Shown here piece by piece: positions 4,901 to 63,807 of a stretch of DNA of 64,000 bases. The stretch is from assembly GCA_038087875.1 (NCBI GenBank), contig CM075990.1, forward strand, positions 13,394,001 through 13,458,000, written 5' to 3'. How positions within the stretch are numbered: the first letter of the stretch is position 1; every line of letters starts with the position of its first letter. The notes below the pieces were generated by a model. The model saw only the letters and a list, made by a program, of their open reading frames with translations, was not told the DNA's origin and made no database searches. Made by a program: the position numbers and the translations under genes. The stretch comes from Malacoraja senta. Taxonomy: Eukaryota.

Positions 4901-5050
4901 TTTGCCCTGGTTTTGTCTGCCTGCCACTTTTACTTTTCACCTTGCTACCTATTGCTTCTACCCTCATTTCACACCCCTCTGTCTCTACGCTCACACATTT
5001 AAGAAACCCTTTCCCTTTAACTCCATCCTCCACTATCCCATTCGACACCC
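1950..5050 (-). mobile_element. CR1 LINE, 5'-truncated, ORF2 (APE endonuclease + reverse transcriptase) broken by stops and frameshifts
   Basis: ORF 4008-5132 has endonuclease motifs (LNARS, GITETWL, MGDFH, SDHN). ORF 2482-3591 has RT motifs ([30 protein letters not shown]). ORF 2038-2442 is the CR1 C-terminus. The tail (GAAACATA) is at about 1950-1960. Confidence 0.95.
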
Positions 5051-5447
5051 CATTTGAAAATATCTCTACATTAAGTAAAAGTTTATTATTGTTACATGTA
5101 TATGAAAAGCTTTTTGTTTGGGTGCTATCCAATCATATCAGATAATACTATACATGAATCCAATCAACACAAACTCAAATGCAAATGTTGAGTAATCGGA
5201 GTGCAAAATATAGTTCTCAGCATTGTACTGCAACAATTCCAGAGAAAAAGTTCAATTGTACAATGAGGAAGGTTGGAAAATTGGGACTGTACCCTAGCTT
5301 ATGGAAGGAACCAATTAGACCTGAGTTATGGAATTAGACCAATTTTGGAAGGACCAATTAGACCCGAGTTCTTTAAAACTAATCCATCAATTTAGCCACT
5401 ATACTACCATAGTCCAACAGCTCTGACCCAAATTAGAAGATTTAATG

Positions 5448-6578: not shown

Positions 6579-8016
6579 CAGTGCCCTCCATAATGTTTGG
6601 GACAAAGACCCATCATTTAATTATTTGCCTCTCCACAATTTGAGATTTCTAATAGAAAAAATCACATGTGGTTAAAGTGCACGTTGTCAGATTTTATTAA
6701 AGGATATTTTTATATAATTTTGTTTCACCCTGTAGAAATTACAGCTGTGTTTATTCCCCCCCCCCCCCCCCCCCCATTTCAGGGCACCATAATGTTTGGG
6801 ACACATGGCTTCACAGGTGTTTGTAATTGCTCAGGTGTGTTTAAATGCCTCCTTAATTCAGGTATAAGAGAGCTCTCAGCAACTAGTCTTTCCATCACCT
6901 TTGGAAACTTTTATTGCTGTTTATCAACATGAGGACCAAAGTTGTGCCAATGAAAGTCAAAGAAGCCATTTTGAGACTGAGAAACAAGAATAAAACTGTT
7001 AGAGACATCAGCCAAACCTTAGGCTTACCAAAATCACCTATTTGGAACATCATTAAGAAGAAAGAGAGCACTGGTGAGCTTACTAATCATAAATGGACTG
7101 GCAGGCCAAGTAAGACCCCCACAGCGGATGACAGAATAATTCTATCTATAATAAAGAAAAATCCCCAAACACCTGTCCGACAGATCAGAAACACTCTTCA
7201 GGAGTCGGGTGTGAATTTGTCAATGACCGCTGTCCGCAGAAGACTTCATGAACAGAAATACAGAGGCTACACTAGAAGATGCAAACCACTGGTTAGCCGC
7301 AAAAATAGGATGGCCAGGTTATAGATTGCCAAGAAGTACTTAAAAGAGCAACCACAGTTCTGGAAAAAGGTCTTGTGGATAGATGAGATGGAATGATGGC
7401 AAGAGCAAAGTATGGAGGAGAGAAAGAACTGCCCAAGATCCAAAGTATACCACCTCATCTGTGAAACACGGTGGAGGGGGTGTTATGGCCTGAGCATGTG
7501 TGGCTGCTGAAGGTACTGGCTCACTTATCTTCATTGATGATACAACTGCTGATGGTAGTAGCATAAATGAATTCTGAAGTGTATAGACACATCCTATCTG
7601 CTCGTTCAAACAAATGCCTCAAAACTCATTGGCCGGCGGTTCATTTTACAGGAAGACAATGATCCCAAACATATCCCCAAAATAAGTTTTTCAAAGTTAA
7701 AAAATGGTAAATTCTTGAGTGGCCAAGTCAATCACCCGATCTGAGCATGCCTTTTATATGCTGAAGAGAAAAGAAGGGGACTAGCCCCCAAAACAAGCAT
7801 AAGCTAAAGATGGCTGCAATGCAGGCCTGGCAGAGCATCACCATAGACGGCACCCAGCAACTGGTGATGTCCATGAATCGCAGACTTCAAGCAGTCATTG
7901 CTTGCAAAGGATATGCAACAAAATACTAAACATGACTACTTTCATTTACATGACTTTGCTATGTCCCAAACATTATGGTGCTCTGAAATGGGAGGACGAT
8001 GTATAAACACTGCTGT
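6579..8016 (+). mobile_element. Tc1/mariner (IR/DR-type) DNA transposon; near full-length transposase pseudogene 6929-7929; right end truncated
   Basis: TA|CAGTGCCCTCCATAATGTTTGGGACA left end, with an inner direct repeat at about 6783-6805. HTH region MRTKVVP...VRRRLHE, WIDE and QEDNDPKH catalytic motifs, and a KGYATKY* end. Premature stop at 7322-7324 plus indels. Confidence 0.92.
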
Positions 8017-9441: not shown

Positions 9442-11206
9442 TGTTACTATAGTCAGAAAGGTTCGAGGACACGTGTTGCCAGGGAAAAGGAATGGCAGAC
9501 AAATAAACCAATGTGTTTATGTTCCGTGTCCTTGAAGCGTGTTTATTGCATTCGTATCAAGGCAAGGATCTGACATTGGCGACGAGGATGGGATCTCGTG
9601 TAACTTTGTGGTGGTACACACCTGTGTTCTTCATGTAGTGCCAACAAAGCTGAGGTCAAGGATGATTGAGTTGGCTCACGAAGGACATTTAGGAGTTGTT
9701 GGAACTAAACAAAATCTTCTTACGATAGTATGGTGGCCAGGGATGGAAAAAGATGTAGAACGACATGCGAGGTCATGCCATGGATGTCAGATGGTAAGCA
9801 GACCCAATCCACCCGAGCCAATAGGAAGCACATTGTTACCGACAGGTCCATGGGAAGATGCTGCTGTCGATTTTCTTGGTCCATTTCAATCAGGAGAATC
9901 AATATGAGTTGTGATTGATTACTACAGCAGATATTATGTGTATGCAATAATGAAGTCTACAACATCGGAAAAGACTGTAGCAGCTTTGATGGAAATCTTT
10001 GCAAGACACGGTCTACCAGTGACATTATATTCAGACAATGGGCCTCAGTTCATTTCTCAGAAGTTTGCCGGCTACACAGGTGTGTACCATCACAAAGTTA
10101 CACCAAAGTGGCCGCAAGTTAATGGACAAGTGGAACGTCAGAACCATTCTCCAGAGAAGAGGTTGAGAATTGCCCAAGCAGAAAGCAAAGATTGCAAGGA
10201 GATGCTCTTACCATATGTGGCAGCATATAGAGTTTGCACCACACAGCACAACGGGGAAGATTCTGGCACAATTGTTGTTTGGAAGGAAAATCCAGACTAA
10301 GATACCATGGGTTAGTTGAAATGGTAAATGATCAAGAAGTGAGAGATGATGCAGAAAAGAAAAGGGCATCAAAGCTCTATACATTCAGGTGACGATGTGC
10401 TAGACCGTCAGATGTGAGATGAGGTGCTAGTGGGGAGAGAAAGTTCAAGCAAAAAGGACACACACTTCTTTCCACAACCATACATAGTGGTGTCCAGACA
10501 AGGGAATATGGTTACGGTCCAGTCGCCAGAAGGAGTCAAATATGATAGAAAAACATCGCATGTGAAAAAGTATCACCGTTGTGATAGTCCAAGGACACTG
10601 CAAACTGAAGTTGAGACTGTGGGGGATCAGACTCAAGACTACCAAATTGAGGAGCCAAGAATGCACGAGTTTGAGGTCAGAGGACACATGGGAAAATGAA
10701 TGGTGGACCAATAAATCAAAGTGTTTATGTTCAGTGTCCTTGAAGCGTGTTTATTATATTCGGAGGTACACAAAAATGCTGGAGAAACTCAGCGGGTGCA
10801 GCAGCATCTATGGAGCGAAGGAAATATGCAACGTTTCGGGCCGAAACCCTTCTTCAGACTGATGTGAGAATTGTGAGAATTCAATGTTCATGCCACCAGG
10901 ATGCAGACTCCCCAAGCGGAATATGAGGTGCTGTTCCTCCAATTTCCGGTGGTGCTCACTCTGGCCATGGAGGAGGCCCAGGACAGAGAGGTCGGATACG
11001 GAATGGGAGGGGAAGTTGAAGTGCTGAGCCACCGGGAGGTCATGTTGGTTAATGCGGACCGAGAGGAGGTGTTCGGCGAAACGATCGCATAGATGCTGCT
11101 GCACCCGCTGAGTTTCTCCAGCATTTTTGTGTACCTGGGATTTTCCAGCATCTGCAGTTCCTTCTTAAATACATTAATATATTCGGATCCAGGCGAAGAT
11201 CTGACA
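9442..11206 (+). mobile_element. Internally deleted Ty3/Gypsy LTR retrotransposon (integrase only) with short LTRs and tRNA-Ser PBS
   Basis: 5' LTR about 9442-9575 ends in TGACA. PBS TGGCGACGAGGATGGGAT is at 9577-9594. Integrase motifs: HEGHLG..CHGC, VDFLGP, IDYYSRY, SDNGPQF, NGQVER. The 3' LTR (about 10670-10764 plus 11178-11206) is split by a Penelope insertion. Confidence 0.88.
10765..11177 (-). mobile_element. Penelope-like element fragment (GIY-YIG endonuclease C-terminal part, hammerhead core, inverted terminal segments) nested in the Gypsy 3' LTR
   Basis: ORF 10808-11104 reads DRFAEHL..PVAQHFN..HSVSDLSVLGL..RKLEEQHLIFRLGSLHPGGMN. CTGAAGA..GAAAC lies on - at about 10832-10858. Arms at about 10766-10810 and 11089-11135 are inverted. 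TSD TATATTCGGA at 10755-10764 and 11178-11187. Confidence 0.85.
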
Positions 11207-11574: not shown

Positions 11575-13155
11575 ATGTGAAGGAAATTCACTTTAAACTG
11601 GACGGCCTGAAAACTGATCCAGCGAAAATCAGTGCTATTAATGAACTTCCAGCACCCACGGATGTGCCCAGCTTGCAGGGGTTCCTTGGCATGGCGAACT
11701 ATTTGAGCAAATTCATTCCAGATTTCAGTTAAATATCAACCCCATTGCGCCATCTCACACACAAAGACTCTGCTTGGACCTGGCATTGACACTCTAAAAT
11801 GGCAGATGTCGGCCACCCCTACTCTAGCGGTACTTTGATCATAGACTGCCTATTACACTTACATGTGATGCCGCACAACATGGCCTGGGCGCTGCCTGCC
11901 TTCAAAATGATAGCCATGTCAATAAGCCTGTCGCCTATGCCTCGCGCACCATGTCTGACACAGAACAACGATACGCTCAAATCGAAAAGGAGTTGTTAGC
12001 GGTTGTTTTCACCTGCAAAAAGTTCAACGATTTCATCTTTAGTCGCACTATTACAATTGAAACCGACCACCAACCTCTGATCAGCATTTTCAGTAAACCT
12101 ATTCATAACTCTCCAGCGCACCTACAACGGATGTTACTACAACTACAAAAATATGACATCGTCCTGACCTACAAACGTGGAAAGGATATGCACCTGGCAG
12201 ACACTCTTTCACGTGCATCTCAGAAGACCTGCGAGGATCTACCCTCACAGGATGATGACTTTATCGTGATGTCCGTATCCTTCATCACTTCATCTTGGAT
12301 GGAGGATGTGGTTGCCCACACTGCCACCGACAAAACCCTATAGTCGCTAACTTCTGTCATTAAGCGCAGCTGGCCAGACAAACACCACAACCTTCCATTG
12401 CCAATACGACCTTTCTTCCCTGTTCGCGACGAATTAGTGCTACAAGACGGCATTGTTTTAAAAGGACACAAGGCCGTGGTTCCTGTTTCGCTGCATCGCC
12501 GGTATTTCGACACTGTCCATGCAGGACACCCAGGTGCTGAAGCCACTGTTTCACGGGCGAAAAGCATGTTTTACTGGCCTGGCATGGCCGAATACATCGA
12601 CGAAAATGTGGCAGCATGTGCTGTGTGCAATAGCCTGGCACCTCATCAACAAAAGCAACCACCTGCCACATCCTGTACCTGCGCTCCCATGGTCTACAGT
12701 GGCAGCTGATTTATTTGAATGGCACGGCAAGCAGTACCTGATGCTCGTGGATTCGTATTCAGGATGGTTCGACATTAATTTTCTCAGCAGCCCCACTTCC
12801 AGCGGTGTGATTTCGAAATTATCTCATCATTTTTCCATCCATGGATCTCCAGGCAAGCTGTTGACTGACAATGGCAGCCAGTTCACCAGCCAACAATTCA
12901 GACAGTTTGCCTGACGCTGGAATTTTCACCACATCACCAGCAGCCCTGAGTATCCACAGTCTAACGGGCTGGCTGAACGGGCTGTCAGAAGTGCAAAACA
13001 ACTCATGGGGAGCGCACTCACAGGGCTAAATCTGCCTTATTCCTGGATTTGCTCAACTTTCGCAACATTTCCCGTGACCCTGCCTTGGGTTCACCTGCTG
13101 AACGATTAATGTCAAGGCAGACCCGTACCCCGTTGCCCGTATATGAGCAAACGTT
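11575..13155 (+). mobile_element. Degenerate Ty3/Gypsy pol fragment (end of RT, RNase H, integrase)
   Basis: EQRYAQIEKELLAVVF, ETDHQPL, ADTLSR (RNase H); HAGHPG..CAVC; ADLFEW..VDSYSGW, TDNGSQF (integrase). Several frameshifts. Confidence 0.9.
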
Positions 13156-13376
13156 AATCCCACTTCTGACACCATGTTGATTTGTAGTCCTTGTAATAAT
13201 AATGGCCTCACACCATGTCAGGTTATATAGAGTTTATTAGGAATAAGCAACACAAGTTCTCACTTGAGAGTTCACTTTAAGACTAACAGAATGCAGCAGA
13301 CTGCGACACTAACAAGCTAGTGGCCGTAACTACAAATGCATGACTCGTAGCATGAGCCACTAATCTCCAATACACA
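13156..13376 (-). mobile_element. Gypsy-type LTR (about 13175-13376) plus tRNA-Leu primer-binding site (13156-13174), opposite in orientation to the adjacent pol fragment
   Basis: The minus strand reads TGTGTATTGG...AATAAA...AAATCAACA|TGGTGTCAGAAGTGGGATT, complementary to the tRNA-Leu(CAA) 3' end as I recall it. The far LTR boundary is approximate. Confidence 0.7.
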
Positions 13377-15344: not shown

Positions 15345-16359
15345 CAGTGCCCCCAAAATGTTTGGGACAAAGACCCATCATTTACTTATTTGCCTCTGTA
15401 CTCCACAATTTGAGATTTGTAATAGAAAAAATAACATGTGGTTAAAGTGTACATTGTCGGAATATATACATACTCCTCCCATTTTAGGGCACCATAATGT
15501 TTGGGACACAGCAATGTCATGTAAATGAAAGTAGTCATGTTTAGTATTTTGTTGCATATCCTTTGCAAGCAATGACTGCTTGAAGGCTGCGATTCATGGA
15601 CATCACCAGTTGCTGGGTGTCTTCTTTCGTGATGCTCTGCCAGGCCTGCATTGCAGTCATCTTTAGCTTATGCTCGTTTTGGGAGCTAGTACCCTTCAGT
15701 TTTCTCTTCAGCATATAAAAGGCATGCTCAATTGGGTTCAGATCATGTGATTGACTTGGCCACTCAAGAATTGTCCATTTATTAGCTTAGAAAAAAAATT
15801 GTTTTAGCAGTATGTTTGGGATCATTGTCTTGCTGTAGAATGAACCGCCGGCCAATGCGTTTGGGGGCATTTGTTTGAACTTGAGCAGATAGGATGTGTC
15901 TATACACTTCAGAATTCATTATGCTACTACCATCAGCAGTTGTATCATCAATGAAGATAAGTGAGCCAGTACCTTCAGCAGCCATACATTCCAGGCCATA
16001 ACACCCCCACCACCGTGTTTCACAGATGAGGTGGTATGCTTTGGATCTTGGGCAGTTCCTTCTCTCCTCCATACTTTGCTCTTGCCATCACTCTGATATA
16101 AGATAATCTTCGTCTCATCTGTCCACAAGACCTTTTTCCAGAACTGTGGTTGCTCTTTTAAGTACTTCTTGGCAAACTATAACCTGGCCACTCTGTATAA
16201 ACACTGCTGTAATTTCTACATGGTGAAACCAAAACGTATAAAAATGGCCTTAAATTAAATCTGACAATAGATTTTTTCTATTTCAAATCTCAAATTGTGG
16301 AGTACAAAGGAAAATAAATAAATGATGGGTCATTGTCCCAAACATTGTGGGGGGCACTG
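15345..16359 (-). mobile_element. Tc1 IR/DR transposon, internally deleted, both TIRs present
   Basis: TA|CAGTGCCCCCAAAATGTTTGGGACA at the left end and TGTCCCAAACATTGTGGGGGGCACTG at the right. WTDETK, QQDNDPKH and SHDLNPIEH remnants lie on -. Same family as 6579-8016. Confidence 0.9.
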
Positions 16360-16384: not shown

Positions 16385-17822
16385 AGAAACATAGAACATA
16401 GAAAATAGGTGCAGGAGTAGGCCATTCGGCCCTTCGAGCCTGCACCGCCATTCAATATGATCATGGCTGATCATCCAACTCAGTATCCTGTACCTGCTTT
16501 CTCTCCATACCCCCTGATCCCTTTAGCCACAAGGGCCACATCTAACTCCCTCTTAAATATAGCCAATGAACTGGCCTCAACTACATTCTGTGGCAGAGAA
16601 TTCCACAGATTCACCACTCTCTGTGTAAAAAATATTTTTCTCATCTCAGTCCTAAAAGATTTCCCCTTCATCCTTAAACTGTGACCCCTTGTTCTGGACT
16701 CCCCCAACATCGGGAACAATCTTCCTGCATCTAGCCTGTCCAACCCCTTAAGAATTTTGTAAGTTTCTATAAGATACCCCCTCAGTCTTCTAAATTCCAG
16801 CGAGTACAAGCCGAGTCTATCCAGTCTTTCCTCATATGAAAGTCCTGACATCCCAGGAATCAGTCTGGTGAACATTCTCTGTACTCCCTCTATGGCCAGA
16901 ATGTCCTTCCTCAGATTAGGAGACCAAAACTGTACGCAATACTCCAGGTGTGGTCTCACCAAGACCCTGTACAACTGCAGTAGAACCTCCCTGCTCCTAT
17001 ACTCAAATCCTTTTGCTATGAATGCTAACATACCATTCGCTTTCTTCACTGCCTGCTGCACCTGCATGCCCACTTTCAATGACTGGTGTACCATGACACC
17101 AAGGTCTCGTTGCATCTCCCCTTTTCCTAATCGGCCACCATTCAGGTAATAGTCTACTTCCCTGTTTTTGCCACCAAAGTGGATAACCTCACATTTATCC
17201 ACATTATACTGCATCTGCCATGCATTTGCCCACTCACCCAGCCTATCCAAGTCATCTTGCAGCCTCCTAGCACCCTCCTCACAGCTAACACTGCCCCCAC
17301 AGCTTCGTGTCATCCGCAAACTTGGAGATGTTGCATTCAATTCCCTCGTCCAGATCATTAATATATATTGTAAATATTGTAAATAGCTGAGGTCCCAGCA
17401 CTGAGCCTTGCGGTACCCCACTAGTCACTGCCTGCCATTCTGAAAAGGACCCGTTTACTCCTAATCTTTGCTTCCTGTCTGCCAGCCAGTTCTCTATCCA
17501 CATCAATACTGAACCCCCAATACCGTGTGCTTTAAGTTTGTATATTAATCTCTTATGTGGGACCTTGTCGAAAGCCTTCTGAAAGTCCAGATATAACACA
17601 TCCACTGGTTCTCCCTTATCCACTCTACTAGTTACATCCTCGAAAAATTCTATAAGATTCGTCAGACATGATTTACCTTTCATAAATCCATGCTGACTTT
17701 GTCCAATGATTTCACCATTTTCCAAATGTGTTGCTATCCCATCTTTAATAATTGACTCTAGCAGTTTCCCCACTACCGATGTTAGACTAACTGGTCTGTA
17801 ATTCCCCGTTTTCTCTCTCTCC
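16385..17822 (-). mobile_element. CR1 LINE, 5'-truncated (RT and C-terminus)
   Basis: ORFs 17285-17848 and 16480-17421 carry [15 protein letters not shown] and FADD; tail at 16385-16402. Confidence 0.95.
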
Positions 17823-19069
17823 GAGAAACCAATTGTTTGTAAATCCATGATGACATTTCATCATTAGTATTCCAGCACATGATGGGTACTTTCAAATCAC
17901 ACGATACAAACATTTAAAAAATAAAGCTGGCCTCATCTATCGTGTTTTTAATTACATTTGCTAACTAGTGGGGAAGCAAAACAATATACAATTGTGAAAC
18001 ACTGTGCAGGTACATGCATTTGGACAATATCTAATTGTTAAGAAGCTCTGTGAGACAAGGTTGGGCCATAATATTCTATAGTCTCGGCTTGCTCGAGTCG
18101 TTAATATAGGAAGAGGATGAGGCCTAATATATTTTCTGGGATTTATTCCAAAATTGTAAAGAGATAGATTTTACTTAAAGAAGGAAAGTCTCTACGTTGT
18201 AAGATGATCTCTCAATATTCCATGACTGCTACCCAAGAACGCACTTATACTTACATTTTTTAAAATCTTCTCCACCTTCCAAAATATATTTGGAAACCTC
18301 CTTGGAGCTTAGCATAAGTCGAGTGCAAATGTAGAACCTTGTTTATATGGAGAGATGATTGCAAAATTAGATTATTGCCTTGTAAAAGTTAAGGAAAATC
18401 CTATTACCAGCTTATTAATTGGGTTATGCTTAGCTTTCTTGGCAGACTGGATGAACAGCAGGAATTTCTTTTTATGTATTTAACTTTTGTGGGGCACGTA
18501 AGGGAAATGTTTTCAATTCTTTGGTTTTAAATACCTCACACTGTCAGTAGTAACTCTAGAATTTTCATTTAAAAGCTCTCGCCAAATGAATGGCATTAAA
18601 GTAACCCTTCCATAGTCCTGAGGCCCAATAAACAAACCTAACCCTACCAGAAAATAATTAATTCAAGCATAGGTAAGGCCAATCTCCCTCAGCTTCAGGA
18701 CACATAGATGGCCTCTAATGTTAGGCCTCCCTGAATAGGTTTCAGGTTAGGAATGTGTTGATTCTGTACCTATGCATTTCCCCCAGAAAGGCTCTGTACA
18801 GCCTCATAAAACCAGGCAAAATCAATGCATCATTTATTCTTCTGACCAATCTCCCATGATGTTCCACTCAGTTGTTTGCCAGAGGGTTAACCTGATGGAA
18901 TACTCGTCTCAGAATAAATTTGTTCACCTCTTACTTTTCCCATTCTCACAACTGCTTGATTGGCAATGCGATAATTGCACCTTGCAACCTTTGTTACCAC
19001 AGAAAAGTGACTGATACTGGAAGAATAAATGCCACTGAAACCAGATAAGTACGAGAGAAAATCATGATA

Positions 19070-26179: not shown

Positions 26180-35881
<9,702 letters not shown>

Positions 35882-36114: not shown

Positions 36115-36323
36115 AAATAATACTGTGGTATTTAACTTGTTTCTGCTTTAAACGTTTGATCCACAAAGTCAACCAACCAATTTGAATACATTCAAACCCG
36201 ATTTTCAGTATTAAAAACAACTTTCCAAACCTTCCTGTGTGGAAAAGCTCTTTTTGGTTTTGAGATTCAGCTTTTTGTGTCTTCAGTTTAAACCAGCATC
36301 GGCAGTTCCTTCCTGCATCGGCA

Positions 36324-36924
36324 GGTTCTACTGCAGTTGTACAGGGTCTTGGTGAGACCACACCTGGAGTATTGCGTACAGTTTTGGTCTCCAAATCTGA
36401 GGAAGGACATTATAGCCATAGAGGGAGTGCAGAGAAGGTTCACCAGACTGATTCCTGGGATGTCAGGACTTTCATATGAAGAAAGACTGGATAGACTTGG
36501 CTTATACTCGCTAGAATTTAGGAGATTGAGAGGGGATCTTATAGAAATGTACAAAATTCTTATGGGGTTGGACAGGCTAGATGCAGGAAGATTGTTTCCG
36601 ATGTTGGGGAAGTCCAGGACAAGGGGTCACAGCTTAAGGATAAGGGGGAAATCCTTTAAGACCGAGATGAGGAAAAACTTTTTCACACAGAGAGTGGTGA
36701 ATCTCTGGAACTCTCTGCCACAGAGGGTAGTTGAGGCCAGTTCATTGGCTATATTTAAGAGGTAGTTAGATGTGACCCTTGTGGCTAAGGGGATCAGGGG
36801 GTATGGAGAGAAGGCAGGTATGGGATACTGAGTTGGATGATCAGCCATGATCATATTGAATGGCGGTGCAGGCTCGAAGGGCCGAATGGCCTACTCCTGC
36901 ACCTATTATCTATGTATCTATGTA
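36324..36924 (+). mobile_element. CR1 LINE 3' fragment (left arm of an inverted pair)
   Basis: ORF 36337-36765 YRVLVRPHLEYCVQFWSP...; tail tctatgtatctatgta. Confidence 0.93.
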
Positions 36925-36952
36925 CACATTCCCTCTCCTTCCTATTGTTTGA

Positions 36953-38608
36953 TACATAGATACATAGAAAATAGGTGCAGGAGTAGGCCATTCGGCCCTT
37001 CGAGCCTGCACCGCCATTCAATATGATCATGGCTGATCATCCAACTCAGTATCCCGTACCTGCCTTCTCTCCATACCCCCTGATCCCTTTAGCCACAAGG
37101 GCCACATCTAACTCCCTCTTAAATATAGCGAATGAACTGGCCTCAACTACCTTCTGTGGCAGAGAGTTCCAGAGATTCACCACTCTCTGTGTGAAAAAGT
37201 TTTTCCTCATCTCGGTCTTAAAGGATTTCCCCCTTATCCTTAAACTGTGACCCCTTGTCCTGGACTTCCCCAACATCGGGAACAATCTTCCTGCATCTAG
37301 CCTGTCCAACCCCATAAGAATTTTGTACGTTTCTATAAGATCCCCTCTCAATCTCCTAAATTCTAGCGAGTATAAGCCAAGTCTATCCAGTCTTTCTTCA
37401 TATGAAAGTCCTGACATCCCAGGAATCAGTTTGGTGAACCTCTGCACTCCCTCTATGGCTATAATGTCCTTCCTCAGATTTGGAGACCAAAACTGTACGC
37501 AATACTCCAGGTGTGGTCTCACCAAGACCCTGTACAACTGCAGTAGAACCTCCCGGCTCCTATACTCAAATCCTTTTGCTACGAAAGCTAACATACCATT
37601 CGCTTTCTTCACTGCCTGCTGCACCTGCATGCCTACTTTCAATGACTGGTGTACCATGACACCCAGGTCTCGCTGCATCTCCCCATTTCCTAATCGGCCA
37701 CCATTTAGATAATAGTCTGCTTTCCTGTTTTTGCCACCAAAGTGGATAACCTCACATTTATCCACATTATACTGCATCTGCCAAACATTTGCCCACTCAC
37801 CCAGCCTATCCAAGTCACCTTGCAGTCTCCTAGCATCCTCCTCACAGCTAACACTGCCCCCCAGCTTAGTGTCATCCGCAAACTTGGAGATGTTGCCTTC
37901 AATTCCCTCATCCAGATCATTAATATAAATTGTAAATAGCTGGGGTCCCAGCACTGAGCCTTGCGGTACCCCACTTATCACTGCCTGCCATTGTGAAAAG
38001 GACCCGTTTACTCCTACTCTTTGCTTCCTGTTTGCCAGCCAGTTCTCTATCCACATCAATACTGAACCCCCAATACCGTGTGCTTTAAGTTTGTATACTA
38101 ATCTCTTATGTGGTACCTTGTCGAAAGCCTTCTGAAAGTCCAGATACAACACATCCACGGGTTCTCCCCTATCCACTCTACTAGTTACATCCTTGAAAAA
38201 TTCTATAAGATTCGTCAGACACGATTTACCTTTCGTAAATCCATGCTGACTTTGTCCAATGATTTCACCACTTTCCAAATGTGTTGCTATCCCATCTTTA
38301 ATAACTGACTCTAGCAGTTTCCCCACTACCGATGTTAGACTAACTGGTCTGTAATTCCCCGTTTTCTCTCTCCCTCCCTTCTTAAATAGTGGGGTTACGT
38401 TTGCTACCCTCCAATCCTCAGGAACTACTCCAGAATCTAAAGAGTTTTGAAAAATTATCACTAATGCATCCACTATTTCTGGAGCTACTTCCTTAAGTAC
38501 TCTGGGATGCAGCCTATCTGGCCATGGTGATTTATCGGCCTTTAATCCATTCAATTTACCCAACACCACTTCCCGACTAACCTGGATTTCACTCAGTTCC
38601 TCAGTCAC
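36953..38608 (-). mobile_element. CR1 LINE, 5'-truncated, with an open 520-codon RT/C-terminal frame
   Basis: ORF 37046-38608 has uninterrupted RT motifs ([26 protein letters not shown]); tail tacatagatacatag. Confidence 0.95.
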
Positions 38609-40955: not shown

Positions 40956-41595
40956 CAGGTTGTGACATGGGCGACAATCAGTTTAGTGTTGGTTGGTGGG
41001 ATTAAGTTTAATAGCTGCTTTTATGACCAGCACAGACCAAGTGATCTTACAATTTCTACGATTTTTTATATTGGACTTTTTAACATTATGTAACGACTTG
41101 AAATTAGAAACAGGGTATTTAAAAATCAAGGCCATCAATTCAAAAGAGCCACGAAGAAACAGTCACGAACAGTCCCAATTTACCCGACGGACACTTGTTT
41201 TTTCCCCCCCAATATAAAACGGCATATTTCATAGAGTCCAAACTTTGCAAGGTGCTAAAGTAAATACTTTTAAAGTAATCTCACACCCGAGATAATGAAA
41301 TCCAATTGAATTGAAATCCACCTCCTTTTAATTTTGATTTAAGGCCATTCTATAGATGAAGTTCATCAACTTTTTCCTCCTACTGTAGTAAATACTGGAT
41401 ATATTTTTTGAATCATAGCATATCTTTCTGAATTGCAATCCTGGAGGATTTGACGAATCTTGTAAATCATTAACCACTGTGAAAATAAAGGTCCGTTGCA
41501 AGTGGTCAATTTGGTTCTGTCCACATTTTTGTGGCCCATGGTTAATCTTTAATTTGACGAGTTTGATTTCCCACCCTGTCTCCCCATTCAATGGG

Positions 41596-41766
41596 ATGGC
41601 GGCAGAGGTCCCCGCACCAGAGCGTGGCTGCCGGTGGCTCCTGTGTGGCTGCTGGTTCTCAGCTTGGGCTCTCTACACCATCTGCTCCGCGTTCTCAGAG
41701 TTCGTCAGCAAAGTCTTCATCAGCCAGTACCGCTTCAGCTTCCCTGCCTTCATCGTCCTCTGTCAG
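41596..41766 (+). CDS. SLC35D3-like exon 1
   Basis: gggATGG Kozak context; MAAEVPAPERGCRWLLCG..KVFISQYRFSFPAFIVLCQ|gtgagt. Confidence 0.85.
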
Positions 41767-44700
41767 GTGAGTAGAGCTGACAAACAGCTAGGGATTGGTG
41801 GTCTGGGCCATTGCTCTGTTACTGTGACAAGTGGGTCTGAGCAGGAATACAACCCCGTCCTCAGCGGGACAATTTCTTGGTACGTCACTTTGCTGTTGAT
41901 AAGTGGGTGACAAATTTCACCCTTAACAACGGGGCTTCAGACAAATGTTTTAAACTTGATATTACTTTGTTTGTCAGTAAAAACCCGAATTAGGAACACT
42001 TTTAGCTTCGGAGTAATCTTTAACCTTAGTCAGTAGGTCGTACATTTCAGCTTGCAGGTTTGAGTACAAAATCCAAGACTCCGCGTTATACTGGTATACT
42101 TTATCTTAATCAGTATGATAATGGTGGTAATGTCACTCCTTGCACAAATTTCCCACACTTTTTAATGAAATACATAATCGATTTAAAAAGGTAAATCCTA
42201 TCTTATATTCCCAGTGTTGAGGGTACATTACTCTATTGGAGGTGCTATCCTTTGAACAAGAAGTTGTCGCCTAGTATAAAAGGGAAATATACTTAAGACC
42301 ACCATGGATGTTTGTCCCAGAGCCTTAGTCAACATTTAGACTTCACACAATAACCGATGCATTATCTGTTCTTTTTCACATTACTCTGTGTGTATAAGTT
42401 AGCTGCTGTCTCCTTCGTTACAATATCGTTGCACAATGTGAAATTCACTAGCTGTAAAGAACATTTGGACATTCCCAAGCTGAGTAGGTTCCCAACCCGA
42501 ATCTCAACACCTTCCATAACATAGCAACTTCATTTATGGATGCCACTGTAAACATTGATTCCCCCTTTCACTGATGCACAGTGTACCACCAACAAAATGC
42601 ACTAAAGTTACTCGTCAAGACAATTCCAACTCCAAACCCAGAACCTCTGCCACTCAGGATAATTGATTTGGAAATACGGAACACCACCACACGCTCGCTC
42701 CCCTCCAAATCACACACAATCCCGATTTAGGAATCCACTGGCCTTTCATCTTCACCGGACTAAATCCTGGAAATGCCGTTTCAACAGCACGGTGGGAGAA
42801 TATTCACCAGAGGGTGATTCGAGATGGCAGTTCACCATCTTCTTCTCAAGGCAATTAGAGATGAGCAGTGACACTCAGAAAATGAATAAAGAACTCTTTA
42901 TGATTCTTTATGCCTGTTTGAACTAGAAACTTTCAGGTTCATTGACAAGCAATGTTGAATAAGAAGTATTTTTCTTAAATAACAATTTCATTACCTTTGA
43001 ATTCAGAAGATTGTGGCACTTTGGCAGACACCTGAGCAAAAGGTAAAAGGTTTGGCCGTTAACTAATTTGGATACAGTACAACGGTTCAAACCGTACTGC
43101 AGGAAGATAAGCTTCATAACGAGGATTGATGTGCCACTGCCATGGCGTGTTGCACTATCGGTGTTGAAACAATCATGTTTGCCTTTCAATAACGTCACTG
43201 TACCATTTCAAGAGTACTGATCCTCTCACTGTCCTGGTCAAAACTCCCACATCAATTAATAGTATGTAAAACAGGACAAAATATGTCATCCCATTGTTAT
43301 TTGTGGGAGCTTGTTTTGCACCAAATAACATGGATGTATACAGTTTTAAAGTCATTTACTGTGTGACTTTGAGACACTTGGAGATATGACAATATTTCAT
43401 AAATATACATACTGTTCTAAACTGTTTATCTTTTGATAGGCGCTACTAACCATTGGCATGCTGCAGTTACTCAAACGAGTTGGGCTACTGAAGATTCGGC
43501 CCTATTTACTGGAGAATGGAGAGATTTTTTTGCTCCCTTCTATTTGTTTCTGTTTTCATTCCATCCTCATCCTGTGGTCTGTGACCAACTCCAGCTCCAC
43601 TGTCTTCACCTTCATCAGGCGGTTCACCCCAGTGGCCAGCTTAGCCCTGACGCAAACATTCAACTTGAAAAAGAGAGCATCTACCGGCAGTGCCTTCCTT
43701 GTGCTCCTGGTCACTTTGTGCTCAGTTCTTGCAGGTAAGATGCGATGATGGATAATTTGTTTTGTATAATTTGCATTAAAACTTTCAAAACATCTCAAAG
43801 TACTTTACAGACAATAACGTGTTAGCGTTGCTGTAAAGTGGACAATATGATAATCTTTGCAAAGCAATTCCATCAAAAACTGTGAGACCAACCCATGAAG
43901 TCAATTTCTGGGTTTGTTGGGTGGAGGAGCAGTATTGGCCCAAAATAGAGAGAATAACTCCACTGCTTTTGTTTCCCAAAATACTGCCAGAGCTTTTGCA
44001 TTTAGAGAGCAGCTCAGACCCTAGTTTGATATTTCTTCCAAATAATGGCAATTCCAGTAATGCAGTACTCTGTTACCTCAATTAAGTGCAAGTCTTGATA
44101 AATCACTTCAGAGTACTTTCTGTTATATAAATGCAAGACTGTAGATTCAAGTTTGACCTCCTAATCTAATGTACATCCCACCTCTACAATATCTTAGTTT
44201 GTACCTTCGCCTTGGCATTCATCCATTACCACTGTATTCTAGCCTCTGTGGCAGTGGCGTCAGTGGTCATTGACAAATCCACACCTGACCAGAAGAGTGT
44301 TTCTGATGTTTTTTCTGTAAATTGAATTGTTTGTGTGTCGTGTAGGAATTGTTTTGTTTGTATGGCTGTGGAAACGGAGTTTCGTTTGAGCCTCTTTGAG
44401 GTTCAAATGACAAGAAATATAATCTAAAAAAAAAAGGTATTTGGAGATTTTTCTTTATTATAGAGATAATTCTTCTGTCATCAGCTGTGGAGGTCTTCCT
44501 TGGCCTGCCAGTCCCTTTGTGATTAGTAAGCTCACCAGTGCTCTCTTTGTAATGATGTTCCAAATAGGTGATTTTGGTAAGCCTAAGGTTTGGCTGACAG
44601 TTTTATTTTTGTTTCTCAGTCTCAAAATGGCTTCTTTGACTTTTATTAGCACAACTTTGGTCATGTTGATAAACAGTAATAAAAGTTTCCAAAGGTGGAA

Positions 44701-47080
44701 AGACCGGAGGAAAGACGAGGTGACGAGAGCTCTCTTATACCTGCATTAAGGAGGCAATTAAACACACCTGAGCAATTACAAACACCTGTGAAGCCATGTG
44801 TCCCAAACATTATGATGTCCTGAAATGGGTTTTGGGGGGGGGGGGGGGGGGGGAGACACTGTGTATAAACACAGCTGTAATTTCTACATGGTGAAACCAA
44901 AATTATAAAAATACCCTTTAATAAAACCTGACAATGTGCACTTTAACCACATGTGATTTTTTTCTATTATAAATCGCAAATTGTAGAGTACAGAGGCAAA
45001 TAAACAGTGGGTCTTTGTCCCAAACATTGTGGAGGGCACTGTATATTCCAAGCTTTGCACAAGAGATTAACAGATTCACAGAAGAAAATATTAAAAGATG
45101 CACTCAAAGCCTCCATGAAGAAATACAACATTCCAACTGACTAATGGGAATCACAAACATATGGCCGCTCAAAGTGGAGAAGGAGCAATTGGGATGACAT
45201 TGAGAACGATAGATCAATGCAGCAGGAACAGATAGGTCCTGTGTAAATGTCGGAATGAGTGCACCATCTCACACACCATTCAACTGCCCATCCTCTCAGG
45301 CATCTCGTAATCCATTTGTGGAAGAATTGGCTTCATCAGTCACTTCAAGACCATGGAAGACAGAGTGGGAGCAAGTTATTCCCAACCCCCGAGAGACTGA
45401 AGTAGAAAGGGCCCAGCAAAGCACAAACCTGTCACTTTGGGGCAGACAATAAATGCAGCTGGGGCTGGCCTTAAACATCATGCTCATACAGTGGCATCTG
45501 AAGATAGTTGCCTGACAATATCCTGAGGGTGTCATTGTGCTCCAAGCCTGGGGCAATGGCTGAAGGGAGGAAGAAAGAAAACCAGTGCCTTGCGGTGATT
45601 GTCACATCCCGTGAATGATTTCCAAAAGAGTTAATGTCAAACTCAAAAATTCGCTGACTTCTCTAGTAACAAATATGATCTTGATTTTCAACAAACATGA
45701 ACCAGAATTTGGAGCAGTTTATCTTATCTTTATTTAAAATTGCATCATTGTTACCTTTTATCAGCAATAATCTAGAGATAATTTGTAGAACATTGGCAAA
45801 TATTAATCACTGGGATTTGAGCAGCATGGTTCACAGAAGTTAGTGTTGCCTCAGTGAAACCCCAGCAACCCAGGTTCAATTCTAACCCGGGATGCTGCCT
45901 GCGTGGAGCTTGCATGTTCTTCCTATTGCCCAACACGTATTTAAAATTTGCCCCTCTCACCTTAAAGCTAGACCCTTAGTTTTTGACATTGTCACTGGGG
46001 AAAATAGTACTAAGTGTTTACTTCTACCCTATGTATGCCTCACGTAATTTTTACACTTTTATTAGGTCTCCTCTGAACCTCTGACGTTCCATTGAAAACA
46101 ACCCGTTTGTCCAAAGATAGACACAAAAACCTGGAGTAACTCAGGCAGCATCTCTGGAGAAAAGGAATAGGTGAATTTTCGGGTTGAGACCCTTCTTCTC
46201 TGATGATGGGTCTCAACCCAAAACGTCACCTATTCCTTTCCTCCAGAGATGCTGCCAGACCCGCTAAGTTACTCTAGCTTTTTTGTGTCCCTCTTCGGTG
46301 TAAACAAACATCTGCAGTTCCTTCCTACATACCAAGTTTGTCCAACCTTTATACCTAATACTCTCTAACCCAGGCAGCATCCTCCTAAACCTCTTCTACA
46401 CTTTCTCTGAAGCACAATAACTTCATTTCTCACCACCAGTAGCTCAACTGATATTCACTTGTAAAATATTGTTTTGAAGAATGTGAAAGCAAGAAAGTGA
46501 AAAACATGACCAATATTCTAATAATAAATCCTAACCAAGTACTGTTCTCATTGGTCCTTCCTTAGGTGTCCGCACCTTCAATGATGAAGCCATTGTTTAC
46601 GTCTATGGGTTGATGAACATCATGCTCGAGAGCACTTATCTCACTTTGCTCCAAAGGATTTGTGAAGACCAAAAGACATCAGTGGTAGATGTTCACTACA
46701 CCTGTACCATCAACAGTTGCCCACTGCTGTTTGTGTACTGCCTTCTCCATCCAGATACTCATCAGATCTACCCTTTGGGAAGTTGGACCAGTCTGATCTT
46801 TTTGGGCTTCTTTTCCTTGGTGCTGCTCCTGGGATGTTTCCTGAAGCTTCTCGCTTGCCTGTGCACTTTGCTGAGTTCAGCACTGATGGCGAGCATGATG
46901 GAGGTTGCGAAGACAGACGTACTGACTCTAAGGAGCATCATTGCATGTGAATGGACAGTCTCGCCATCACAGCTCACGAGTCTTCTCATCAGTGCCAGTG
47001 GAGTGGGCATCTTTATATATAAAGATTGCAGAGAAACAAATAAATCAACGAGGAACGAGACTGTGGGATTCAAACTCTGA
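41596..47080 (+). CDS. SLC35D3-like nucleotide-sugar transporter (SLC35D/DMT family); join(41596..41766,43440..43734,46566..47080), 326 aa
   Basis: GT-AG introns of phase 0 and 1; 981 nt with no stops; multiple hydrophobic TM segments. Colinear similarity to SLC35D3 as recalled: KVFISQYRFSF ~ KFLISRYQFSF, LQLLKRVGLL ~ LELLRRLGLI, IRRFTP ~ FKRCLP, CSVLAG ~ GAALAG, YLTLLQR ~ YLVLIQK, CPLL ~ TPLL, LLGC ~ LIGC, CTLLSSA ~ CTYINSA. Confidence 0.85.
43440..43734 (+). CDS. SLC35D3-like exon 2
   Basis: ttttgatag|ALLTIGMLQLLKRVGLLKIRPY...LVTLCSVLA G|gtaaga. Confidence 0.88.
44440..45041 (-). mobile_element. Tc1 IR/DR transposon, 5' half only, in SLC35D3-like intron 2
   Basis: Ends ...CCCAAACATTGTGGAGGGCACTG|TA; N-terminal transposase remnant MTKVVLIKVKEAILRLRNKNKTV on -. 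Confidence 0.88.
46116..46330. mobile_element. Penelope-derived fold-back element
   Basis: Inverted arms around cccttcttctctgatgatggg; degenerate hammerhead cores on both strands. Confidence 0.75.
46566..47080 (+). CDS. SLC35D3-like exon 3 (terminal)
   Basis: ccttccttag|GT VRTFNDEAIVYVYGLMNIMLESTYLTLLQRIC...GVGIFIYKDCRETNKSTRNETVGFKL*. Confidence 0.88.
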
Positions 47081-48051
47081 AAAATGTTCAGTATATTTCA
47101 AATATTAGAATTTAACTCAGGGAGTCATATTCCACCTTGCCGCTAAAATGATTGATTGCTGATGCTGCAGTGGAGAAGAGGACACATCCAAATACATGTC
47201 TCACTAGGAAATCATGTTAAGCTATTCAACATAAGGTCATTTATAACTTCTGGCTCTTGTGATTTCCAGCTGCCTCAAAATCCAGAGGTTATACAAGTTG
47301 CTATCTAACCACACGTGTACAGCACTGTAACAGCAGGTTTGCATGGAGAAAGCTCTCACAAACAGCTGTCTGGTAATGAACATACACTGTGTTCTTGGGG
47401 ACAATTGGGATAGATTCAGAATAGACCTGGCAAACCAAACTAGACATCCATGCAACACCGGACCAATGCAGCAGAAATGTACACCATTGCAATCTGCAAC
47501 CTCACTGCCTGGCATTTCCTTCACTCTACCGTCACAATTGGGCAAGGCAATAGACATTGCTTCAATGAGGAGTGCAGAAGAACACGCCAGTTCCAGCACA
47601 ATGTAGACCCAACAATCATGGGCCAAGCACGGTCCTAGTGAAACAAGTTAGTGGGCATCAACGGAAATACCTCCAGCTGTTGAAGTTAAACCCACACAAA
47701 GAAGACAGTTATGGTTGTTGAGTCAATTATCCCAGCGTGGGGCATCAATGCAGCAATTCCCCAGAGTACCTTCTTCACCAATGGCCTTCCTATCTCCATA
47801 ACAGAAGTGGGGACACACTCTGATAATTGCAGTATTCAATGCCATTTGCAACTTTTGAGAAATGAAACTGTCCAAGCCTGAATACTATGAGACCCGAACA
47901 GCATGGATTAAGTGGCAAAGGACAGTCTTACCACAAAAGTGCCAGGCAATGACCATCTCCAATACGAGAGTCTATCCATCTAACATTTAGTCAATACAAT
48001 CACAATCAAGGGGGCCATTATTCACCAGAAACTCAAATGCATCAGCCAAGT

Positions 48052-48176
48052 CTGAAGAAGGGTCTCGACCCGAAACGTCACCCATTCCTTCTCGCCAGAG
48101 ATGCTGCCTGCCCTGCTGAGTTACTCATTTTGGGTCTACCTTTAATTTAAACCAGCATCTGCAGTTCTTTCCTACA
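48052..48176 (+). mobile_element. Penelope-derived short element starting at an intact hammerhead core, 9-bp TSD
   Basis: CTGAAGA A GGGTCTCGACCC GAAA CG TC at 48052-48079; TSD CAGCCAAGT at 48043-48051 and 48177-48185. Confidence 0.85.
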
Positions 48177-48575
48177 CAGCCAAGTTAATATGGTGGCTAG
48201 AAAAGCTAGTCTGAGATTTGTTAGCATGGGGAAAGTGATATATCTTCTGATACCATAACCTATGAAGCCATTAGAAGCGTGATAAAACACTCCCTATTTG
48301 TCTAAATTAGTGCAGCAATGTATCCTTATTATCTATGAACAGTAGATGGGTAATAAAATGATGTTGGAAGATATATTCACTTCACAATCCCATTGTTAAT
48401 TCTTTTAAGTCAAGTCAAGTCGTCAACTTTATTTGTCACATACACATACAAGATGTGCAGTGAAATGAAAGTGGCAATGCCTGCGGATTGTGCAAAAAAC
48501 TACAGAACAGGAATAATCTTAACAATAATGACCAATTGTCTCCACATTATTTGGAAATTGTTGCTTAAGTTTTCA

Positions 48576-48581
48576 TTTATT
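48576..48581 (-). terminator. Candidate ECD polyadenylation signal
   Basis: TTTATT on + (AATAAA on -) about 300 nt past the ECD stop. Confidence 0.55.
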
Positions 48582-48877
48582 TACAGTTACAAAAATATTT
48601 TCTGTAATACTTTGAGGAAAGTATTAAAATACGGAAAAGTGAACACTCTCTGATTGCTGTACTTTGTTTTCAAATTCATGGCAAATGAAAGCAGACAGCT
48701 GCACCAAAGTCAGATTTAATGGACCCTTGTCTCTAATGATGGACTAGCAGCCCTGGTTTAACTGTAGCGTGGAACACACGTAGAGTTTGGAAGGTGACGC
48801 AAAAGTAACAGAATGGATGATAAAAATCTGTTGTGAGAGGTGTTCACCAGACAGAGCCATTATGTGACTCTGTTCTG

Positions 48878-63807
<14,930 letters not shown>

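What the first reader, a model, noticed from the sequence alone, without database searches (positions are those of the whole stretch)
41596..47080. Intact, divergent SLC35D3-like transporter gene between NUDT13 and ECD
Seen: a clean three-exon, 326-codon multi-pass membrane protein, split across three unrelated-looking ORFs in the track. Established: it aligns colinearly with SLC35D3 motifs; in human, NUDT13 and ECD are neighbours and true SLC35D3 lies elsewhere. As I recall, its second intron (phase 1 after ...VLA-G) matches the single SLC35D3 intron. It also has an extra phase-0 intron after Q57, lacks the long acidic C-terminal tail, and changes conserved positions (FKR to IRR, GCAMNF to GCFLKL, VKSI to AKTD). 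Inference: an ancient SLC35D paralog kept in cartilaginous fish, probably lost in mammals, possibly with a different substrate.
Basis: partly seen in the sequence, partly recalled or inferred. Interest (0 to 1): 0.75.

Follow-up and report, generated by a model that had tools for sequence, protein, structure and literature searches.

The report
Fish-retained sister gene of SLC35D3
This skate gene is a real, spliced relative of the sugar-nucleotide transporter SLC35D3 that lampreys, sharks, bony fish and coelacanth keep but land vertebrates seem to lack, and its altered binding pocket suggests it carries a different cargo or none.

Summary
The three-exon, 326-codon gene is exactly as described. 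Contigs from a related organism skip both introns, and its listed differences are mostly silent per site (pN/pS about 0.3). It is not the SLC35D3 orthologue. It belongs to the orthogroup that NCBI labels si:ch211-248a14.8, present in lamprey, chondrichthyans, coelacanth, bichirs, paddlefish, gar and teleosts, so it is not a cartilaginous-fish relic. Coelacanth and reedfish each hold both genes, and the clades are separate (100/99 and 100/100). No tetrapod or lungfish member appeared in four protein searches; genomes were not searched. The model has the ten-helix SLC35 fold (Z 27.6 to Vrg4). The pocket is remodelled: glutamate replaces the glycine of the TM9 GxxK motif in 11 of 11 chondrichthyans (no acid in 93 outside rows), the TM1 NK pair is lost, and gar and teleost members lack TM10. 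Best reading: an endomembrane carrier with a changed substrate; a non-transporting role is the main rival. The gene is predicted in databases, often misnamed SLC35D3, and no paper on it was found.

The parts
41596..41766 (+). Coding exon 1 (M1-Q57): TM1, loop 1-2 with the clade-invariant Q44-Y45, start of TM2
   Evidence: laid by contigs X1 rec 1 and X2 rec 7 from 41611/41612
41767..43439 (+). Intron 1, GT-AG, phase 0; human SLC35D3 has only two exons
   Evidence: skipped in X1 rec 1 and X2 rec 7; two exons per PMC3923682 passages
43440..43734 (+). Coding exon 2 (A58 to first base of G156): TM2-TM5, with R117/R118 at the Vrg4 K118 position
43735..46565 (+). Intron 2, GT-AG, phase 1 in G156; position appears ancestral to the animal D3-like family; holds repeats
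   Evidence: 23 of 35 N-terminal fragments of relatives lose homology right after this codon and a camel SLC35D3 model joins at it
46566..47080 (+). Coding exon 3 (rest of G156 to L326, TGA): TM6-TM10, clade-specific loop 7-8 (H217-P218, G227-L232), E268-x-x-K271 on TM9, short tail without YEDL
47081..47529 (+). 3' untranslated region, minimum extent; true end not known
   Evidence: X1 record 1 continues to 47529; first AATAAA on + at 48352
27916..35878 (+). Upstream neighbour, NUDT13-like exons (approximate span of the open frames seen; last one 35618-35878)
   Evidence: Pfam NUDIX E 6.8e-06 for 34323-34619, no hit for three other pieces; frames; gene name from recalled motifs
48881..63807 (-). 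Downstream convergent neighbour ECD (SGT1 family); its last coding frame ends at 48881, 1.8 kb from the transporter's stop
   Evidence: Pfam SGT1 in 5 of 6 pieces, E 4e-09 to 3e-29; the last exon had no hit; frames

Best explanation
A functional, spliced gene for a ten-helix SLC35/DMT-fold membrane protein. It is the skate member of a vertebrate paralogue lineage (NCBI si:ch211-248a14.8) that split from SLC35D3 no later than the lamprey-gnathostome split and seems lost in tetrapods. Shown: gene structure, splicing in a relative, constraint, clade, fold. Inferred: it sits in ER, Golgi or endosomal membranes and works by alternating access like its family, but on a substrate other than the UDP-glucose reported for SLC35D3, most likely smaller or less anionic. 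It keeps the equivalents of Vrg4 Y28, S32 and N191, one TM4 basic residue and the TM9 lysine, but has gained acids at E35, E268 and D273 and lost the TM1 NK pair. Identity of the gene: about 0.95. The confidence given is for the mechanism.
For: Gene model and splicing. 12 silent against 11 replacement differences among 23 listed, pN/pS 0.30, p 0.004. Clade with lamprey 100/99, SLC35D3 clade 100/100. Both genes in Latimeria and Erpetoichthys. Model pLDDT 92.3 with ten membrane helices; Z 27.6, rmsd 3.3 over 290 residues to Vrg4 5ogk. Among 11 chondrichthyans: Y27 11, S31 10, acid at 35 in 11, H97 11, N173 10, N205 11, E268 11, K271 11; polar residues kept inside helices fit a working cavity. 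Outside the clade column 268 is G in 81 of 89 rows plus 4 of 4 SLC35D3 rows, never D or E. In Vrg4 the neighbouring A286D change gives a mutant strain that needs complementation, and S32, K118 and K289 are needed for transport (PMC13342644, passages).
Against: No transport, location or tissue data. The Vrg4 mapping comes from a profile alignment and puts K271 on N288, one off K289; no side-chain geometry was inspected. The good model was built on an alignment in which 99 of 120 rows lie outside the clade; with the 11 chondrichthyan rows alone pLDDT was 39.8, and that profile found 0 solved structures. True SLC35D3 also lacks the FYNN asparagines yet is reported to carry UDP-glucose, so motif loss need not mean substrate change. 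Many pocket residues are not kept in teleosts or lamprey, which fits rival 1 better. The difference list behind pN/pS was cut by the tool.
Confidence: 0.45

Rival explanations
1. A pseudo-transporter: the fold is kept as a membrane scaffold, chaperone or regulatory partner whose conserved surface faces the lumen, and it carries nothing.
For: The column of the essential Vrg4 K118 is K/R in 92 of 93 outside rows but basic in 9 of 11 chondrichthyans and 0 of 8 other clade members; K118A is transport-dead but binding-competent (PMC6789118, passages). All six gar and teleost-like members I read end after TM9 (P0190, P0031, P0032, P0044, P0046, P0055), and 3 of 3 teleost rows lack K271. The residues most specific to the clade (Q44, W103, S228, L232 in 19 of 19) lie in loops or helix ends on one face. 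Non-transport roles are reported for SLC35D3 itself (PMC6709370 and PMC3923682, passages).
Against: The skate protein has all ten helices, R117, R118 and K271; each of 11 chondrichthyans keeps at least one basic residue at 117/118. The reading fits the ray-finned branch better than this gene.
Confidence: 0.28
2. An ordinary nucleotide-sugar/nucleotide-monophosphate antiporter of the Golgi or ER, overlapping with SLC35D1-D3, which would explain why tetrapods could lose it.
For: Nearest structures are Vrg4, SLC35B1 and the CMP-sialic acid transporter; Atlas features match UDP-sugar transporter clusters at 0.98; Y27, S31, R117 and K271 are present; SLC35D3 departs from the consensus too and still carries UDP-glucose (PMC8373376, passages).
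Against: An acid replaces a near-invariant glycine beside the lysine that contacts phosphate and sugar in Vrg4; N38, P111, G151, D159, G279 and G294 of the outside consensus are also lost; Pfam TPT hits a coral relative at E 2e-13 but none of the 11 chondrichthyan proteins.
Confidence: 0.22
3. It is the chondrichthyan SLC35D3 orthologue, fast-evolving and translocated, as several NCBI names imply.
For: NCBI names 7 of the 11 first hits SLC35D3 and one more SLC35D3-like; I could not show a second, true SLC35D3 in a skate or shark genome.
Against: It groups with coelacanth, reedfish and teleost proteins whose genomes or lineages also hold true SLC35D3; the skate protein is 49% identical to the coelacanth paralogue and 21% to coelacanth SLC35D3, while coelacanth and perch SLC35D3 share 67%. 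Even if sharks had lost SLC35D3, this gene would still be the paralogue.
Confidence: 0.03
4. On origin only: the lineage is older than vertebrates and has separate invertebrate orthologues, instead of arising by a vertebrate duplication with SLC35D3.
For: Free trees do not join it to SLC35D3 (sister in 142 of 1000 bootstraps; 424 of 1000); FastTree joined it to four nematode-like rows at 96.
Against: The nematode join vanished under the mixture model; the tree with both vertebrate clades held together scored 4.4 log units higher, AU p 0.635; SLC35D3 is the most frequent bootstrap sister.
Confidence: 0.3

Closest known systems
SLC35D3 (vertebrate; vesicular UDP-glucose transporter, dense-granule protein)
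   Same: Same D3-like branch of SLC35D; colinear over ten helices; shared intron position at G156 (indirect); both lack the FYNN asparagines
   Different: 21-22% identity; separate clade; extra intron; no long tail or YEDL signal; TM9 GxxK is ExxK; locus between NUDT13 and ECD, whereas human SLC35D3 is at 6q23-25 (PMC3923682)
si:ch211-248a14.8 / Si:ch211-207n2.7 (automatic fish gene names in NCBI and UniRef)
   Same: Same orthogroup: 100/99 clade; 49% to coelacanth, 37% to paddlefish, 25% to killifish
   Different: No paper found on it; gar and teleost members lack TM10 and most pocket residues, while the skate protein is complete
Invertebrate D3-like / UTr7-like proteins (coral, sea urchin, Capitella, copepods)
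   Same: 25-28% identity, higher than to true SLC35D3; share H97, N205 and the G156 intron signature
   Different: They keep NK on TM1, PMY-x3-KR on TM4, GD after TM5 and G-x-x-K on TM9
Vrg4 GDP-mannose transporter (PDB 5ogk, 9s35) and human SLC35B1 (9gs5)
   Same: Ten-helix DMT fold, Z 27.6-27.9, rmsd 2.9-3.8; Y28, S32, K118 and N191 have equivalents in the skate protein
   Different: 13-16% identity; FYNN reads YTCT; S266 is K249; Y281 is A264; G285 is E268

Membership tests
SLC35 / DMT nucleotide-sugar transporter family | Ten-helix inverted-repeat DMT fold | tested here: met
   Model of the 95%-identical Leucoraja protein, pLDDT 92.3, Z 27.6-27.9; the deep alignment favours this fold
SLC35 / DMT nucleotide-sugar transporter family | Sequence homology to SLC35D members | tested here: met
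   Profile of 11 chondrichthyan proteins hits invertebrate D3-like at E 2e-38 and coelacanth SLC35D3 at E 2e-24; Pfam EamA in 6 of 11, best 23.6 bits, under the 28.2 cut-off
SLC35 / DMT nucleotide-sugar transporter family | TM4 lysine (Vrg4 K118) | tested here: inconclusive
   R117 in this protein; basic in 9 of 11 chondrichthyans, 0 of 8 other clade members
SLC35 / DMT nucleotide-sugar transporter family | TM9 G-x-x-K / GALNK motif | tested here: not met
   K271 kept, glycine replaced by E268 in 11 of 11 chondrichthyans
SLC35 / DMT nucleotide-sugar transporter family | Nucleotide-sugar antiport in ER or Golgi | not testable with these tools
   Needs localisation and transport assays
SLC35D3 orthologues | Groups inside the SLC35D3 clade | tested here: not met
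   Separate supported clades in three trees
SLC35D3 orthologues | Long C-terminal tail with YEDL sorting sequence | tested here: not met
   Tail of about 19 residues without tyrosine; YEDL present in perch and camel SLC35D3, absent in coelacanth SLC35D3; role per PMC13485648 abstract
SLC35D3 orthologues | Two-exon structure with the intron at the G156 codon | tested here: inconclusive
   Three exons here; the shared intron is supported only through protein fragments and one camel gene model
SLC35D3 orthologues | No other SLC35D3 in the same genome | tested here: inconclusive
   No genome held for the window; coelacanth and reedfish hold both genes
si:ch211-248a14.8 orthogroup | One clade with named members, sharing clade-specific residues | tested here: met
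   100/99, 99/98; 24 columns conserved in at least 16 of 19 members and rare outside
si:ch211-248a14.8 orthogroup | Conserved NUDT13-ECD neighbourhood in other fishes | not testable with these tools
   No eukaryote genomes could be fetched

The most novel reading that the evidence does not exclude
An undescribed fifth vertebrate SLC35D subfamily in which a nucleotide-sugar carrier was rewired at the base of vertebrates into an acid-lined carrier for a neutral or cationic metabolite, was cut to a nine-helix non-transporting protein in gar and teleosts, and was lost at the water-to-land transition. It would be a natural series from transporter to pseudo-transporter within one orthogroup, testable in zebrafish.
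Probability: 0.25. Interest if true: 0.65.

Novelty: new variant of a known kind. Interest (0 to 1): 0.38.

Why it matters
It corrects an orthology trap: shark and ray RefSeq entries named SLC35D3 at this locus are a different gene. It adds an undescribed vertebrate SLC35D branch that tetrapods seem to lack. Its substitutions fall on the motifs that structural work ties to nucleotide-sugar binding, so the skate, coelacanth and zebrafish proteins form a ready set for asking how the SLC35 fold changes substrate or stops transporting. It has no direct bearing on human biology, and fish-retained, tetrapod-lost paralogues are common, which keeps the score moderate.

Tried and rejected
No whole genome is held, so a second SLC35D3 copy and synteny elsewhere could not be read. 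Pfam on single exons gave only EamA at E 0.014 for exon 3. The first structure job on 11 close sequences failed (pLDDT 39.8) and was not used. The profile of those 11 found 0 PDB sequences. The FastTree grouping with four nematode-like proteins was rejected as long-branch attraction: I left them out, put them back, and they moved into the invertebrate group. TMEM241/SLC35D4 and human SLC35D1/D2 were not in any tree; one eel D1/D2-like protein and unnamed rows served as outgroup. No holder was on record as RNA; X3 and X4 were marked probably DNA and show no spliced piece, so only X1/X2 (one sample) count. Tetrapod or lungfish members: none among 11, 17 and 16 named hits; of the best 150 of 569 representatives, 20 were looked up by name, and the other rows scoring nearest the clade resembled teleost members. 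The word searches missed paddlefish, so they lose members under about 45-50% identity. Literature: 0 papers for ch211-248a14.8, 0 for five alternative names, 0 for an SLC35D1 cryo-EM query, nothing relevant in the listings. The pig cloning paper says nothing on introns. Earlier findings of this scan: none. No complex prediction was run, as no binding is claimed.
Full report
Verdict. The gene is real and is not SLC35D3. It is the skate member of an uncharacterised vertebrate paralogue group that databases label si:ch211-248a14.8, found from lamprey to teleosts and coelacanth and not found in tetrapods. Its substrate pocket differs from the family at several key positions. What it carries, if anything, is inferred and not shown.

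The observation. Exons 41596-41766, 43440-43734 and 46566-47080 on the + strand give 326 codons and a stop, with GT-AG introns of phase 0 after Q57 and phase 1 in G156. Three skate RefSeq proteins of 326 residues match at 315, 310 and 299 positions, so the window is from a skate. A 1453-base contig from a related organism lays on all three exons with contiguous record coordinates and skips both introns; a second run of the same sample repeats this (table 8). The runs are only guessed to be RNA, and the other two runs laid were marked probably DNA and show no spliced piece. Of 23 coding differences that the tool listed, 12 are silent and 11 change a residue, against 232 silent and 707 replacement sites: pN/pS 0.30, p 0.004. 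The list was cut, so this is an estimate. The flanks are a NUDIX-domain gene upstream on + and ECD downstream on -, with 5 of 6 ECD pieces hitting Pfam SGT1. The name NUDT13 rests on that hit and on motifs I recall.

Relatives. Exon 3 found 11 chondrichthyan proteins at 56-94% identity. Their profile added coelacanth and entries named si:ch211-248a14.8. The search of all 50% representatives added paddlefish, bichirs, teleosts and a lamprey protein, and the coelacanth query added gar. True SLC35D3 turned up lower in the same list: coelacanth, perch, reedfish and camel. Coelacanth and reedfish therefore hold both genes. The Leucoraja protein is 49% identical to the coelacanth paralogue but 21% to coelacanth SLC35D3, while coelacanth and perch SLC35D3 share 67%. 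I could not show a true SLC35D3 in a skate genome, since none is held.

Trees. With a mixture model and 42 rows, the window protein lies in an 11-row clade with lamprey (100/99), and SLC35D3 forms its own clade (100/100); both sit among invertebrate D3-like proteins. Whether they are sisters is open. They were sisters in 142 of 1000 bootstraps in that set and 424 of 1000 in a 32-row set. The tree that holds them together scored 4.4 log units higher than the free tree, AU p 0.635. A FastTree join with four nematode-like rows disappeared under the mixture model. The lamprey row is long and oddly composed, so its place is less sure than its support suggests. TMEM241 was in no tree.

Introns. Human SLC35D3 has two exons and lies at 6q23-25 (PMC3923682, passages). 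I could not read its intron position directly. Indirectly, 23 of 35 short N-terminal fragments among the representatives lose homology right after the A155-G156 codons, often continuing with K, E or M as a phase-1 donor would give, and a camel SLC35D3 gene model with a foreign first exon joins at the same codon (count made by reading the printed ends). Intron 2 thus looks ancestral to the animal D3-like family. One teleost-like fragment begins at the Q57 junction after an acceptor-like stretch, which hints that intron 1 is shared within the clade.

Loss. No tetrapod or lungfish member appeared among the named hits of three word searches or among the 20 representatives named of the best 150. 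The remaining rows nearest the clade resembled teleost members. Gene lists put NUDT13 next to ECD in human (PMC4388690, one passage) and duck (PMC13255704, one table row). This is moderate evidence: the word searches miss members under about 45-50% identity, and no genome was searched.

Fold and pocket. A model of the 95%-identical Leucoraja protein on a 120-row alignment has pLDDT 92.3 and ten membrane helices. It matches SLC35B1, Vrg4 and the CMP-sialic acid transporter at Z 27.3-27.9, rmsd 2.9-4.0 over 283-300 residues. Most alignment rows lie outside the clade, and the model on 11 close rows failed, so the fold is partly borrowed from the family. Mapped to yeast Vrg4 through the profile alignment, the protein keeps Y28 (Y27), S32 (S31), K118 (R117), N191 (N173) and a TM9 lysine (K271, one off K289). 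It has lost the TM1 NK pair, which 75 and 80 of 83 outside rows keep. G285 of the GALNK motif is E268 in 11 of 11 chondrichthyans, D in coelacanth and lamprey, E in paddlefish, and K, H or Y in the five other ray-finned rows; outside it is G in 81 of 89 rows and 4 of 4 SLC35D3 rows, never an acid. Position 35 is acidic in 15 of 15 non-teleost jawed members. In Vrg4, S32, K118 and K289 are needed for transport and A286D is a defective allele (PMC13342644, passages); K118A binds but does not transport (PMC6789118, passages). All six gar and teleost-like members I read stop after TM9. The residues most specific to the clade (Q44, W103, S228, L232 in 19 of 19) sit in loop 1-2, the end of TM3 and loop 7-8, which by the family's topology (recalled, and consistent for loop 1-2) face the lumen.

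Mechanism. My best reading (0.45) is an endomembrane carrier working by alternating access on a substrate other than UDP-glucose, probably smaller or less anionic. Sharks and rays keep polar and charged residues inside the helices, but with acids where the family binds a diphosphate sugar. The main rival (0.28) is a non-transporting scaffold or chaperone; it fits the truncated gar and teleost forms best, and SLC35D3 has reported non-transport roles (PMC6709370, passages). A plain UDP-sugar antiporter (0.22) remains possible, since SLC35D3 also departs from the consensus and is still reported to carry UDP-glucose (PMC8373376, passages). The tail lacks the YEDL sequence that helps send SLC35D3 to dense-granule precursors (PMC13485648, abstract and opening text), so a granule or vesicle location is not expected. 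Coelacanth SLC35D3 lacks YEDL too, which weakens that point.

Novelty. The gene is predicted in RefSeq and UniRef, named SLC35D3 in 7 of the 11 first hits. I found no paper on it in the held library (listings of 29, 57, 63). Subscription journals are mostly missing and I searched no supplementary files, where the fish gene name may well appear in expression tables. It is a new variant of a known family. I score it 0.38: a clean, testable orphan branch with a remodelled pocket, of a kind (fish-retained paralogue) that is common.

Noticed in passing
window 41591-41593 (+): An out-of-frame ATG lies five bases before the start codon, in weaker context; in the spliced message it opens a 61-codon frame ending early in exon 2. 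It could lower translation by leaky scanning.
   Followed up: partly
window 47529-48881: The transporter's 3' region and the ECD 3' region converge; contigs cover the gap almost without break (47536-49000) at depth 11-63, so the two untranslated regions may abut or overlap. Contigs give no strand.
   Followed up: no
P0190, P0031, P0032, P0044, P0046, P0055: Gar and teleost-like orthologues all end after TM9, so a nine-helix form with its C-terminus on the other side of the membrane seems fixed in neopterygians.
   Followed up: partly
window 249th codon, about 46844-46846; P0001-P0011: Position 249 (Vrg4 S266, Asn in the family) is K or R in skates and rays, coelacanth, paddlefish and reedfish but N in sharks and chimaera; it lies across from E268 and might pair with it.
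   Followed up: no
P0006 (Pristiophorus), P0118 and P0154: Faulty database gene models: a reverse-transcriptase piece fused to the sawshark protein, and foreign N-terminal stretches in reedfish and camel SLC35D3.
   Followed up: no
window 1-27000 and 36200-38400: Mostly repeats by eye: LINE-type reverse-transcriptase remains (2041-5132, 16483-17857, 36292-38305), Tc1-like transposase remains (6887-7618, 15544-16176; also 44267-44745 inside intron 2) and LTR-element integrase remains (9536-10297, 11828-13177). Labels are from recalled motifs.
   Followed up: no
P0029-P0048 and similar rows: Corals, sea urchin, annelid, copepods and nematodes have conserved D3-like transporters with the full canonical motif set; both vertebrate descendants are long-branched and have each lost different parts of it.
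   Followed up: partly
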